DNA of 38,930 nt, from the IMG/VR virus record IMGVR_UViG_2545824708_000026; one strand, written 5' to 3'. Made by a program: the position numbers. Within the stretch, counting starts at the first letter, position 1; each line of letters starts with the position of its first letter. The stretch comes from a virus (lineage: Duplodnaviria; Heunggongvirae; Uroviricota; Caudoviricetes). This document shows, in pieces, positions 24,001 to 27,000 of this stretch.

Positions 24001-27000
24001 TCCATTATCAATTCTTGAATGACAATCAACACATAGCGCAGCAGTAAGGCAATCATCTACTTTAATCCCAACCCCCTTCCCTTCATTTCTGTGAGCGGCC
24101 TGAACTCCGTATCTTCCGCAAAGAACGCAAAATTCAATATCCCTGACTGCCTGAAGCCATTTTTTGCTTCTAAACATCAATCCCCTCCAAAAAACGTCGG
24201 TACGCTGATTTGTTTTTTATGTTGCACACTGTCTGCGCACAAACACCAAATTCTTTGGCTATATCTCTGTATTTGCCTTTTGATTTATATATTGATTTCA
24301 CTTGTTCTGGCGTTAGTTTGCAGAAGTGATGATTAAAACCATGAACAAGCAACCCGGAATCAAATCCATGTTTCGCATTTTCTGTTCGCGTTACCCACTC
24401 AAGATTTTCAACTTTATTATTAAGTTTATTTCCATCCTTGTGATTAACTTCCGGCTTTCCATCTGGGTTATCAACAAATACTTCTGCAACAATTCTGTGA
24501 ACCATTTTATATGATGGTCTTTTCCCGCCACCTGGATATAGACCGACAAATGCATATCCTCCTGGTTTAATACCATGAGATAATTTTTTTGATTTACGGC
24601 ATGAAATGATGTCTCCATTCTCAGTTACTTTATATATACCCTCAAACCCGGGGATATCTTTTTCTTTTACATCATCCATCGTCTTCCTCCGCGTGCTTCT
24701 TTGCGTAGATTGGCCATTAAGCAGCCTCCCCTGTTACTTTCAGCATTCCGTTATCGAGCAGCTTTCTGGTCAGCCACTGTTGACCACGCCCGGTGATTTT
24801 TGTGGTGAACGATATCTGTATTCCGTGATTTGTGTTGACCGCTGTTTCTTTCACTGTGAAATAGCCGCGCTCCATATATTCCTGCATTGGCACATTGCGC
24901 CGGGAACCTGAAGCAATAAGGATTTTGTGATCGCGCATCCACGCAAACAGTTTGTTTGGACCAATTCCAACAACCTTTGCAAAGTTTCCAATCAAAATTC
25001 CACTGGCCTCGCCAACGCGATCGGCAAACTCAACTTTAGGTGCGGCAATTGCGAGCTGGTTTTCCAGTTGCATTTTCTGCTCAGCAAGATCGGCAGCAAG
25101 GCGCAACGCTTCCGGTAGCGTTTTGGGGATATTAACCGCAGCTTCTTCAAGCTCTCGCCAGCGGTCAACAAGGCGAGCGGTGAACTCTGGCGACAACTGG
25201 GCAACAACGACAATACTGTCTCGCTTACCTTGTTCGCCCTCGAAGACGTAATGCTCGTACTGAACATTGAACCCTAAGTTATTGATTCTTTCGGAAACCT
25301 CAATTTGAGGAAGCCGGATAACACCATTTTTAGCCAGCGTTTCGATGGTACGTTTCACATTGTCATGACGCTTACCCACCAACTCAGCGATTTCAATGCT
25401 TGTCATTTTGATGGCATTGCCATTTATTAACTCATTCATCGTCTTCTTCCTCGTACATTGAGCTATTCGGATCGCTCATCAGCTCTGCGCAGCAGTGCTC
25501 ACACACGTGAACTTCCAGCACATGCAGCTTCTGACCGCAGTTAGCGCACGTTAAAGCCCGCTCGACGCTTTCTTTCTGGTATTGAAGAGATTGGGATGGA
25601 CTAAGCATGGCTTTCACCATTAAAAAGTCGCTTGTAAGCATCAATGTCTCGTTTTGCTTCACCAAGCTTTCGTCTTAATTCCATGTTTTCTGATTCAAGC
25701 TTTTCCATATCTTGCTGGTATCGATCGCGGTGTTCTTTCCATGCTTTTCGATACGCCTTCATGTATGTCATGTTGGCCTTTCTCTTTGCCTGACGAACTG
25801 CGTGGTGGTTTTCCACAAACCAGTCAGGGTCGTTAAATGCTGCTCTGGCGCATGTATACCAATAATTTGTTGCCTCCCTGTTTAGCCAATAAATACTGAT
25901 AAATGGCAACCGGATAGACACCATTTTTCGTTGTGACTCTTTCTCGCCAAACATGTGGCCTTTTTTGATGCTAAGTCCAAATCCAGGTTGAATTAAAAGC
26001 ATTGTCATTTCCTCGCACGATGTCTTAGCCACCGGATATCCCACAGGTGAGCCGTGTAGTTGAAGGTTTTTACGTCAGATTCTTTTGGGATTGGCTTGGA
26101 TTTATTTCTGGAGCGTTTCGTTGGAAGGTATTTGCAGTTTTCGCAGATTATGTCGGTGATACTTCGTCGCTGTCGCCTCATGCCGCCCTCCTGACGCCCT
26201 GCCCGATCGCCATCAATGCCGCTTTGGATACGGTAGTAAACATCCGTCGAGGACTGATGAACGGTCGCCAAATCAGCAGCATTGAGCCTTTGCTGTTTCC
26301 CTTCTTCTCCAGCCCCGTCGATGGTTCGATAAAATTAATCCGTCCATCAGTGATGATGCGAACTTCGTCGACACTCTCCAGAGCCTTGCTGAACCATCCG
26401 ACTGACATATCCTCTGGCACAAGCATAACTACCGTCTGTCGCTGTTGTATGCACTGCTCAGCGGCTTTTTCCACCCACGGCCTGATATTGCTGTACGGTG
26501 GGTTATTCCAGATTGCACCGTGGCTTACCCACTCAGAATTGAGCGCGTCGTCGGCCTCAGTTAGCCAGTGAGCGCACAGAGCATTTTTGTCGCTCGCAGC
26601 TGAATCCAGCCAGAATCCAAACTCAATATCCAGTGCATCAAAAAGCCAAAGCGGCGTTTGCCAGCAGTCCTTGTCGTGTGCTGGCGTATTTGATTTGATA
26701 GTCATGCAGCCCGATCTCCCCATCGCGCTTTCCATTCGAGAGCCAGTCGCGCTTCGTCTGACCACTTAACGCCACGCTCTGTACCGAATGCCTGTATAAG
26801 CTCTAATAGCTCCGCAAATTCGTTTACACGCATCCTGCTGGTTGACTGGCCTATTACCACAAAGCCATTCCCGGCAAGGTTAGGAACAACATCCTGCTGC
26901 TTTAATGCTGCGGTAAACACACACTTCCAGCTTTCTGCATCCAGCCAGCGACCATGCCATTCAACCTGACGAGAGACGTCACCTAAGCAGGCCCATAGCT

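What the first reader, a model, noticed from the sequence alone, without database searches (positions are those of the whole stretch)
24170..24679. Free-standing AT-rich HNH homing endonuclease inserted in the nin region
A NUMOD4 plus HNH_3 architecture ([58 protein letters not shown]) sits in conspicuously AT-rich DNA between the Rha-like and YbcO-like genes. This is a selfish element within the prophage and may mark a recent insertion.
Basis: partly seen in the sequence, partly recalled or inferred. Interest (0 to 1): 0.4.

Follow-up and report, generated by a model that had tools for sequence, protein, structure and literature searches.

The report
I-HmuI-like homing endonuclease beside ybcO-like gene
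The gene is a real, intact, AT-rich HNH homing-type endonuclease in an E. coli P22-like prophage, of an ordinary and already annotated kind; it travels as a two-gene cassette with a small YbcO-like nuclease gene, and here that cassette has replaced the usual DUF1364 gene upstream of rusA.

Summary
Observation confirmed. ORF 24170-24679 (-) encodes a 169-aa NUMOD4 + HNH_3 protein. It is full-length I-HmuI-like by sequence and predicted fold, keeps the catalytic His/Asn residues, is under purifying selection, and is the lowest-GC stretch of the window.

Interpretation partly supported. It behaves like a free-standing homing endonuclease:
- No intron, no own promoter.
- Present or absent among near-identical prophages; one internally deleted copy exists.
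- Relatives at about 40% identity sit at other sites in P22-like phages.

It is not a lone, simple insertion:
- Against the E. coli W prophage (97% identical flanks), the replaced unit is 783 bp: HNH plus the downstream 91-aa YbcO-superfamily gene, in place of the DUF1364 body.
- A 29-nt DUF1364 5' stub remains at 24689-24717.
- Every relative down to 44% identity (15 contexts) abuts a small YbcO/DUF1364/DUF968-type nuclease gene. None of 121 loci with more distant relatives does.
- Most close homologues carry a DUF1364-derived N-terminus.
- Synonymous sites are saturated between subclades, so the pairing is old.

Best reading: a homing endonuclease lineage specialised on the ybcO/DUF1364 slot upstream of rusA or Q. 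The cleavage target is inferred, not shown. New member of a known kind; modest interest.

The parts
24170..24679 (-). NUMOD4 + HNH_3 + C-terminal helix-turn-helix endonuclease, 169 aa, I-HmuI-like
   Evidence: ORF. Pfam. PHROG 59. I-HmuI 1u3e by sequence, E 9.3e-19 over residues 6-121. AF2 model with pLDDT 94.3. Foldseek finds 1u3e as the only significant PDB hit, E 4.6e-10 over 165 columns. Invariant residues H61 R62 N79 H80 N92 L93 E94 W95 N101 H104. dN/dS 0.07-0.09.
23902..24177 (-). 91-aa small His-Me/HNH zinc-finger protein (CxxC...AHRN...CxxCH) of the YbcO/DUF1364/DUF968 superfamily. Its ATG overlaps the HNH stop by 8 nt (ATGTTTAG). It is the second gene of the cassette.
   Evidence: PHROG 131 6e-31, with weak DUF968 and YbcO hits. 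Profile cross-hits with DUF1364/YbcO at about 1e-5. A homologue follows every HNH relative of 59-99% identity.
24689..24717 (-). 29-nt 5' stub of a DUF1364 gene (ATGGCCAATCTACGCAAAGAAGCACGCGG; MANLRKEARG), out of frame with the HNH. It is the left edge of homology with Ant-DUF1364-RusA prophages.
   Evidence: blastn against the E. coli W prophage ends at 24689. About 590 E. coli genomes have Ant followed by DUF1364, with homology reaching this point. Sequence.
24680..24688 (-). Scrap of a NinF 3' end (AGGAAGACG, continuing into ATGGATGA) that provides the Shine-Dalgarno-like GGAGG and the start context of the HNH. The joint with the DUF1364 stub lies in a 6-nt microhomology, ACG(C/A)GG.
   Evidence: Alignment with E. 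coli 042, Louie and Dewey, where NinF ...GAGGAAGAAGACGATGAATGA overlaps the HNH start.
23543..23905 (-). RusA Holliday-junction resolvase. Its start codon is the right edge of the replaced segment.
   Evidence: Pfam RusA 1.1e-16. Homology with E. coli W resumes exactly at 23905.
24717..25439 (-). Rha/KilAC antirepressor (Roi-like), the upstream neighbour. Only one complete E. coli genome in the collection (QML220601) shares this Ant-HNH arrangement.
25432..25608 (-). NinF (58 aa). In most carriers it is the gene directly abutting the HNH.
   Evidence: Pfam NinF, translation, contexts.

Best explanation
The gene encodes an active-looking, free-standing HNH homing-type endonuclease of the I-HmuI (HNH_3, His-Me group 2) kind. 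It has N-terminal NUMOD4 beta-strands, a beta-beta-alpha-metal catalytic core and a C-terminal helix-turn-helix. It has no promoter of its own and is translated from the early-right (nin) operon transcript.

It belongs to a lineage that lives only next to the small YbcO/DUF1364/DUF968-type nuclease gene found upstream of rusA or Q in lambdoid phages. In enterobacterial phages it is fused at its 3' end to the start of a 91-aa YbcO-like gene, and the two genes move as one cassette.

In this prophage the 783-bp cassette occupies the place of the DUF1364 gene body, between Ant and RusA.

Inferred, not shown: during mixed infection or prophage-phage encounters the enzyme nicks or cuts cassette-less phage DNA at or near this locus. 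The two independent joints at DUF1364 codons 10 and 15-17 point to the DUF1364 5' end. Recombinational repair then copies the HNH and its linked, presumably resistant, YbcO-like allele into the broken genome.
For: - Architecture and fold.
- Catalytic residues: H80, N92 and N101 align with I-HmuI H75, N87 and N96 and are invariant in 54 homologues.
- Selection: purifying, omega 0.07-0.09, with long-term conservation despite saturated dS.
- Free-standing, promoter-less: no Rfam intron; no promoter or terminator excess; 8-nt overlap with the downstream gene.
- Sporadic distribution and decay: 33 intact, 1 with a 330-bp in-frame deletion of the catalytic core, and 3 empty beside the same downstream allele. 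The 91-aa family occurs without HNH in SEN22, ENT47670, PSTNGR2lys, pAEv1818, HK639 and E. coli KL53/ET896.
- Replacement boundaries against E. coli W: 24689 and 23905.
- Lineage-specific linkage: all 15 distinct contexts of relatives at 44% identity or more abut a group-7 His-Me gene. This holds for 0 of 43 plus 0 of 78 loci of more distant relatives.
- DUF1364 remnants: DUF1364-like N-termini on 16-18 of the 25 closest homologues, and a YbcO 3' remnant after the HNH in L079.
- Site-specific subfamilies, typical of homing endonucleases: relatives at about 40% identity sit at other intergenic sites of P22-like phages, such as Q-holin and the head-tail genes.
- Literature: free-standing T4 HNH mob genes are promoter-less intergenic cassettes that nick neighbouring genes and co-convert flanks (PMC2988022). 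HNH_3 (group 2) is classed as homing endonucleases, and YbcO/DUF1364/DUF968 (group 7) as prophage proteins next to RusA, Q and antirepressors (PMC5714182).
Against: - No cleavage site or homing event is shown. No 'empty' genome has both flanks identical with only the HNH missing: the empty sites carry a different NinF allele on the left.
- The position aligned with I-HmuI Asp74, which from my own recollection of Shen et al. 2004 is a metal ligand, is an invariant Asn (N79) in this clade.
- Constant pairing with a YbcO-like gene and long-term purifying selection would also fit a cooperative function.
- Segment identities do not show the cassette to be more conserved than its flanks. That gives no clear co-conversion or sweep signal.
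- Ordinary mosaic recombination in nin regions could produce the same boundaries without any nuclease action.
Confidence: 0.65

Rival explanations
1. The HNH and the adjacent YbcO-like protein form a functional two-nuclease module that benefits the phage, rather than a selfish element. Possible roles are recombination or replication-intermediate processing with RusA, or a weapon against co-infecting phages. The pairing would be kept by selection on the phage.
For: An invariable adjacency, usually with overlapping reading frames, across 15 contexts down to 44% identity. Similar divergence of the two genes between subclades: 70/78, 63/62, 63/64 and 59/64%. Strong purifying selection on both. Within this 91-aa allele in E. 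coli, 33 of 37 genomes keep an intact HNH. I-HmuI-type enzymes are known to confer a competitive advantage on flanking markers (cited in PMC2988022).
Against: The YbcO-like gene is common without the HNH, including the same allele at 98.5% nt identity. One carrier has lost the catalytic core by an in-frame deletion with the neighbours intact. The partner varies in family (91-aa type, true YbcO, RecA_dep_nuc/DUF968-like) and in side (upstream or downstream). That fits a target locus better than a fixed protein partner. PADLOC matches only its generic 'HEase' homing-endonuclease models.
Confidence: 0.2
2. The gene is a resident, no longer mobile relic. On this view an old insertion is carried along passively, and all the boundaries seen are ordinary nin-region mosaic recombination.
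For: The association is ancient, with saturated dS. No clean both-flank empty site was found. The cassette is not more conserved than its flanks. There is an Asp-to-Asn change at a position I recall as a metal ligand in I-HmuI.
Against: omega of 0.07-0.09 and invariant catalytic residues over long divergence argue for a maintained enzymatic function. A passive relic should accumulate stops and frameshifts, but only 1 of 34 E. coli copies is damaged.
Confidence: 0.12
3. The HNH is a DNA-packaging cofactor of the terminase, as HNH proteins are in HK97-like cos phages.
For: HNH proteins next to terminase genes exist in related prophages, for example E. coli 042.
Against: This gene lies in the nin region, about 4-5 kb from the terminase genes. 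It belongs to the NUMOD4/HNH_3 I-HmuI group. It is absent from most otherwise similar P22-like prophages.
Confidence: 0.02

Closest known systems
I-HmuI (Bacillus phage SPO1 intron-encoded HNH nicking homing endonuclease; PDB 1U3E)
   Same: Same length class (169 vs 174 aa) and full-length architecture. Sequence E 9.3e-19 over residues 6-121. The predicted fold matches over 165 columns and is the only significant PDB hit. H75/N87/N96 are conserved as H80/N92/N101.
   Different: I-HmuI is encoded inside a group I intron of a DNA polymerase gene. This gene is free-standing between nin genes, with no intron RNA. Identity over the structural alignment is only 29%. The position of I-HmuI Asp74 is Asn here. 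Activity, strand specificity and target are untested.
Free-standing HNH 'mob' endonucleases of phage T4 (MobA, MobE) and intronless homing
   Same: A promoter-less HNH gene in an intergenic slot between conserved genes, sporadically distributed, with a likely target in a neighbouring gene and co-transfer of flanking DNA (PMC2988022).
   Different: A different HNH subfamily (mob genes are HNH group 1 in PMC5714182; this is HNH_3, group 2). The host is a temperate lambdoid phage. It is fused to, and travels with, an alternative allele of the neighbouring gene. No experimental homing data exist.
NCBI 'NUMOD4 motif-containing HNH endonuclease' WP_001000608.1 / WP_069722431.1 and the same gene in Escherichia phages Louie and Dewey
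   Same: 98-99% identical protein in the same HNH/91-aa/RusA arrangement.
   Different: In those genomes NinF (or a NinF-like ORF) abuts the HNH. Here, and in strain QML220601, an antirepressor plus a DUF1364 stub lies upstream.
Phage epsilon34 gene 31 (in-frame fusion of an eaE-like N-terminus to a putative HNH homing endonuclease related to Gram-positive phage enzymes; PMC2629481)
   Same: A P22-like phage carrying an HNH homing-type gene that captured the 5' end of a resident gene. This parallels the DUF1364 N-termini on this lineage's relatives.
   Different: A different locus (early-left operon) and a different captured gene. Homology to the present protein was not examined.

Membership tests
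HNH_3 / His-Me finger group 2 (I-HmuI-like) endonucleases | beta-beta-alpha-metal core with a catalytic His and the Asn residues of the H-N-N motif | tested here: met
   Pfam HNH_3 43.3 bits against a 24.8 cut-off. H80/N92/N101 align with I-HmuI H75/N87/N96 and are invariant in 54 homologues. The position of I-HmuI D74 is N79, also invariant.
HNH_3 / His-Me finger group 2 (I-HmuI-like) endonucleases | Modular DNA-binding domains flanking the nuclease (NUMOD-type N-terminal strands, C-terminal HTH) | tested here: met
   NUMOD4 29.2 bits against a 23.4 cut-off. The AF2 model has N-terminal strands and three to four C-terminal helices, pLDDT 94. It aligns with I-HmuI along 165 columns.
Free-standing homing endonuclease gene (HEG) | Not inside an intron or intein; located between conserved genes | tested here: met
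   No Rfam intron family at E <= 1 in 22000-27000. The gene lies between Ant/NinF and the YbcO-like gene.
Free-standing homing endonuclease gene (HEG) | Sporadic presence or absence among closely related genomes, with degenerate copies | tested here: met
   33 intact, 1 internally deleted and 3 empty among the 37 E. coli genomes with the same downstream allele. About 590 genomes have Ant-DUF1364 instead.
Free-standing homing endonuclease gene (HEG) | A clean empty site with both flanks homologous, defining a simple insertion | tested here: not met
   The empty sites share only the right flank; their NinF allele differs. Against E. coli W both flanks match, but the difference is a replacement (HNH + 91-aa gene for the DUF1364 body), not an insertion.
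Free-standing homing endonuclease gene (HEG) | Site-specific cleavage or nicking of the HEG-less allele, and active-site-dependent preferential inheritance with co-conversion | not testable with these tools
   Requires a nuclease assay and phage crosses. The sequence-based proxy, a cassette more conserved than its flanks, gave no signal.
YbcO/DUF1364/DUF968 (His-Me group 7), for the 91-aa neighbour | Small prophage protein with CxxC ... H ... CxxCH zinc/His-Me motifs, located next to RusA, Q or an antirepressor | tested here: inconclusive
   The motifs are visible in the sequence. PHROG 131 scores 6e-31. The Pfam DUF968 and YbcO hits are below the curated cut-offs (19.7 and 18.9 bits against 27.8 and 29.9). 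Home-made profiles cross-hit at about 1e-5. There is no PDB sequence hit. The genomic position fits PMC5714182.
Terminase-associated HNH (HK97 gp74-like) | Adjacent to the terminase genes of a cos phage | tested here: not met
   The gene is in the nin region of a P22-like prophage.

The most novel reading that the evidence does not exclude
This HNH lineage is a dedicated parasite, or weapon, of one phage locus: the small YbcO/DUF1364/DUF968 nuclease gene upstream of rusA or Q. It would cut the 5' end of DUF1364-type genes and spread by replacing them with a cassette made of itself plus a resistant, functionally equivalent YbcO-like allele. That is a homing endonuclease that carries its own immune copy of the target gene. 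The DUF1364 N-termini on most relatives, the stub at 24689-24717 and the YbcO 3' remnant in L079 would be scars of such events.
Probability: 0.25. Interest if true: 0.5.

Novelty: new member of a known kind. Interest (0 to 1): 0.3.

Why it matters
On its own this is an ordinary, already annotated HNH endonuclease gene. It would matter mainly as a tractable temperate-phage example of intronless homing. The element is tied to one accessory locus (ybcO/DUF1364 upstream of rusA or Q) across Enterobacteriaceae and beyond. It sits exactly on a mosaic boundary of the nin region. It may also explain allele replacement at that locus. [quoted passage not shown] It could also offer a compact I-HmuI-like nickase with a defined target.

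Tried and rejected
- Clean empty site. Megablast of the locus against 5426 complete E. coli genomes found HNH-less copies of the downstream allele, but each has a different NinF allele on the other side. The insertion point can therefore only be placed within the first 2-4 codons of the 91-aa gene.
- P0003-type relative. It is absent from the complete E. coli genomes, so no HEG+/HEG- pair could be made for it.
- Species-representative genomes (GTDB). No relative above 56% identity was found, so these loci served only as controls. IMG/VR gave one 99% copy and otherwise relatives at or below 53%.
- Co-conversion or sweep signal. Per-segment identities of window against carriers are similar for cassette and flanks.
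- NCBIfam. No hits for the HNH, the 91-aa protein or DUF1364.
- PDB sequence search for the 91-aa protein. Only chance SETD2 hits.
- PADLOC. Only generic 'HEase' models, and nothing for the neighbours.
- Own promoter or terminator. None beyond chance.
- Group I intron. None.
- Terminase-cofactor role. Rejected on position and family.
- Chance ORF. Rejected on conservation and dN/dS.
- Reading the 13 nt upstream of the HNH as wholly NinF-derived. This was refined: the spacer is a DUF1364 stub joined to a NinF 3' scrap.
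Full report
**1. What is there**

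The ORF is exactly as reported: 24170..24679 on the minus strand, 169 aa, ATG start.
- Pfam finds HNH_3 at residues 58-102 (2.8e-11) and NUMOD4 at residues 7-48 (1.1e-06). Both are above the curated cut-offs.
- PHROG 59 'HNH endonuclease' scores 1.9e-50.
- GC is 0.367 against 0.480 for the whole window. Only 0.05% of 510-bp windows are as low, and the global minimum overlaps the gene.

The window is a P22-like prophage of E. coli integrated at yfdC/tRNA-Arg(CCT)/intS. Its early-right operon is on the minus strand, in this order:

| Gene | Coordinates |
|---|---|
| NinB | 26702-27160 |
| Dam methylase | 26178-26765 (ORF as listed) |
| NinE | not delimited |
| 133-aa ORF | not delimited |
| NinF | 25432-25608 |
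| Rha/KilAC antirepressor | 24717-25439 |
| HNH | 24170-24679 |
| 91-aa ORF | 23902-24177 |
| RusA | 23543-23905 |
| NinH | 23358-23546 |
| Q | 22873-23361 |

**2. The protein**

- The closest solved structure by sequence is the intron-encoded nicking homing endonuclease I-HmuI (1u3e), with E 9.3e-19 over residues 6-121.
- An AlphaFold model built on 54 homologues has mean pLDDT 94.3. It shows N-terminal strands, the beta-beta-alpha core and a C-terminal helical bundle.
- Foldseek against the PDB finds I-HmuI as the only significant hit: E 4.6e-10, 165 aligned columns.
- Counting residues along the alignment, I-HmuI D74/H75/N87/N96 correspond to N79/H80/N92/N101.
- H61, R62, N79, H80, N92, L93, E94, W95, N101 and H104 are invariant in the alignment.
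- The catalytic His and the Asn residues are therefore present. From my own recollection of Shen et al. 2004, Asp74 is a metal ligand in I-HmuI; here it is Asn throughout the clade. I count this as a small caveat.
- The gene is under purifying selection. dN/dS is 0.07-0.09 against the E. coli 042 and phage Louie copies. Between subclades dN is 0.23-0.36 while dS is saturated.
- There is no intron RNA and no promoter or terminator signal beyond chance.
- A GGAGG lies 7-8 nt before the ATG, and the stop overlaps the next gene's ATG (ATGTTTAG).

**3. Distribution in E. coli**

- Only 37 of 5426 complete genomes carry this allele of the 91-aa gene. Of these, 33 have the intact HNH.
- One genome (AH19B041) has a 330-bp in-frame deletion that removes the catalytic core, leaving 59 aa.
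- Three genomes (RM8082, DETEC-S565, NCTC9104) have no HNH at all. In them a different NinF allele abuts a 93-aa version of the gene.
- Homology between HNH+ and HNH- copies begins at window 24168, right at the HNH stop codon.
- All HNH+ alleles start M[F/Y]RS[K/N]KW. HNH-less alleles have 2-3 extra N-terminal codons: MAIYRSSKW, MRIFRSNKW, MRSTYRNKKW.
- Counting diverged alleles, the 91-aa family is present in 48 genomes, 14 of them without any HNH.
- Among sequenced phages, the HNH at 98.8% identity occurs only in Louie and Dewey.
- The 91-aa family occurs without it in SEN22, ENT47670, PSTNGR2lys, pAEv1818, HK639 and others.

**4. What was actually exchanged here**

Only one complete E. coli genome in the collection (strain QML220601, from yak) shares the Ant-HNH arrangement with the window. 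In the other carriers the NinF stop overlaps the HNH start, as ATGAATGA.

About 590 E. coli genomes have the same antirepressor followed by a DUF1364 gene. The E. coli W prophage has the order NinF-Ant-DUF1364-RusA-NinH-Q.

blastn of the window against that prophage gives two blocks:

| Window block | Identity | Edge |
|---|---|---|
| 24689-25608 | 97.4% | ends 29 nt into DUF1364 |
| 23357-23905 | 97.5% | starts at the RusA ATG |

- The 783 bp in between (HNH + 91-aa gene) replace 258 bp of DUF1364 body.
- The spacer between Ant and the HNH is a DUF1364 stub (ATGGCCAATCTACGCAAAGAAGCACGCGG, MANLRKEARG).
- That stub is joined, through a 6-nt microhomology ACG(C/A)GG, to the last bases of a NinF gene (AGGAAGACGATG).
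- The window's configuration is therefore best read as a recombinant. One parent had the common NinF-HNH-91aa-RusA type and the other the common NinF-Ant-DUF1364-RusA type. One joint lies inside the DUF1364 5' end.

**5. The lineage and its constant neighbour**

Homologues at 59-75% identity occur in E. coli, Salmonella, Klebsiella aerogenes and Citrobacter koseri prophages.
- In every context examined the HNH is immediately followed, with an 8-14 nt overlap, by a homologue of the 91-aa gene. HNH/partner identities are 70/78, 63/62, 63/64 and 59/64%.
- The upstream gene varies: NinF, an 81-aa ORF, a 100-aa ORF, a DNA methylase, or DUF1367.
- The downstream gene also varies: RusA or a DUF1133-type Q.

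More distant members (44-54% identity) are also adjacent to a small His-Me gene:
- an intact YbcO upstream (Aggregatibacter, YbcO-HNH-RusA);
- a YbcO downstream (JGI contig);
- RecA_dep_nuc/DUF968-like CxxC...HH proteins.
- In one IMG/VR contig, such a gene lies upstream and a 3' remnant of a YbcO/DUF1364 gene lies downstream.

As a control, none of 43 genome loci and none of 78 viral loci encoding more distant HNH_3 relatives has any such gene within 2-4 kb.

Relatives at about 40% identity in other P22-like phages sit elsewhere: between Q and the holin in N7 and 29485, and among the head-tail genes in UPF_BP1. Site-specific subfamilies of this kind are typical of homing endonucleases.

Sixteen of the 25 closest homologues by regular-expression match, 18 by eye, begin with a DUF1364-like N-terminus (MANLRKEARGRECQV...) fused in frame at about codon 15-17.

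The 91-aa family and DUF1364/YbcO are related: profile cross-hits are about 1e-5. They belong to what Jablonska et al. call His-Me group 7, prophage proteins next to RusA, Q and antirepressors (PMC5714182).

**6. Interpretation**

Shown:
- An intact, selected, I-HmuI-like HNH endonuclease gene.
- It is free-standing and promoter-less.
- It is sporadically distributed, with one decayed copy.
- It is physically fused to a YbcO-like gene.
- It sits on a mosaic boundary where the cassette replaces DUF1364.

Inferred:
- It acts as a homing (probably nicking) endonuclease on cassette-less phage DNA at this locus. Repair then copies the cassette in, as described for the free-standing T4 enzymes. Those are promoter-less, nick or cut a neighbouring gene and co-convert flanks (PMC2988022).
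- Two independent joints fall within DUF1364 codons 10-17: the out-of-frame stub here and the in-frame fusions in relatives. Together with the YbcO 3' remnant in L079, they make the DUF1364 5' end a candidate target. This remains a hypothesis.

Against the selfish model:
- No clean empty site with both flanks matching was found.
- There is no co-conversion signal.
- The constant pairing and long-term selection would also fit a cooperative two-nuclease module. I rate that model at about 0.2.

A passive relic is unlikely given omega below 0.1 and only 1 damaged copy among 34.

**7.

- Architecture, AT-richness, position and 'selfish element' are supported.
- 'Recent insertion' of the HNH is not supported. 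The HNH/91-aa pairing is old, with saturated dS and presence in several genera.
- Compared with the nearest relatives, the differing unit is a two-gene replacement.
- The most recent event at this locus is probably the Ant/DUF1364-stub junction.

**8. Novelty**

The gene is already named by PGAP ('NUMOD4 motif-containing HNH endonuclease') and belongs to a large, well-known family.

What is new is descriptive: the cassette structure, the DUF1364 replacement and stub, and the lineage-wide linkage to group-7 His-Me genes. It is a new member of a known kind, with interest about 0.3.

Noticed in passing
window 23358-23546 (-), codon 14 at about 23505-23507: ninH carries a CAG-to-TAG nonsense change at codon 14, compared with intact 62-aa NinH in E. 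coli 042, QML220601 and W prophages. It is probably a pseudogene, a sign of prophage decay.
   Followed up: partly
window 20711-21190 (-): A 159-aa protein with a Tad2-like (Thoeris anti-defence 2) domain, PF11195 6.4e-22, just downstream of the lysis genes.
   Followed up: no
window 22626-22781 (-): tRNA-Thr(TGT) and tRNA-Asn(GTT) lie between Q and the holin. In related phages and prophages (N7, 29485, E. coli AH19B041) this same Q-holin gap instead holds another NUMOD4/HNH endonuclease, about 40% identical to the one studied.
   Followed up: partly
window 24667-24717 (-): A 16-codon remnant ORF, MANLRKEARGGRRWMM*, made of the DUF1364 5' stub plus NinF 3' scrap. Its ATG overlaps the Ant stop (TAATG) and it ends 8 nt past the HNH ATG. 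It might couple HNH translation to Ant.
   Followed up: no
L004 3269-3448 (E. coli AH19B041, NZ_CP196316.1): The HNH is reduced to a 59-aa 'NUMOD4 domain-containing protein' by a 330-bp in-frame deletion of the catalytic core, with the neighbours intact. The same prophage has a second HNH between Q and the holin.
   Followed up: yes
L079 1588-2556 (IMGVR_UViG_3300045988_182665): A 46%-identical relative is flanked upstream by a 94-aa CxxC...HH nuclease. Downstream lies only the last 26 or so residues of a YbcO/DUF1364 protein, as if the HNH had replaced most of that gene.
   Followed up: partly
L063 966-1547 (phage SEN22), L053 2996-3544, L066 40-678: Other unrelated HNH genes sit at further positions of the same nin regions, for example between NinB and NinD in SEN22. 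The nin region seems a frequent home for HNH genes.
   Followed up: no
window 24717-25439 vs L002 and L062: The window's antirepressor is 98.5% identical to that of E. coli W but only 90.5% identical to that of QML220601. QML220601 nevertheless shares the identical DUF1364-stub/HNH junction and a 99.6% identical HNH, which implies a further recombination inside Ant.
   Followed up: no
window 38307-38930 (+) and 1-1250: A second antirepressor (AntA + P22_AR_C domains) runs off the window end. The left end of the window is host yfdC plus tRNA-Arg(CCT) followed by an IntS-type integrase, the argW attachment site present in all 5426 E. coli genomes.
   Followed up: partly
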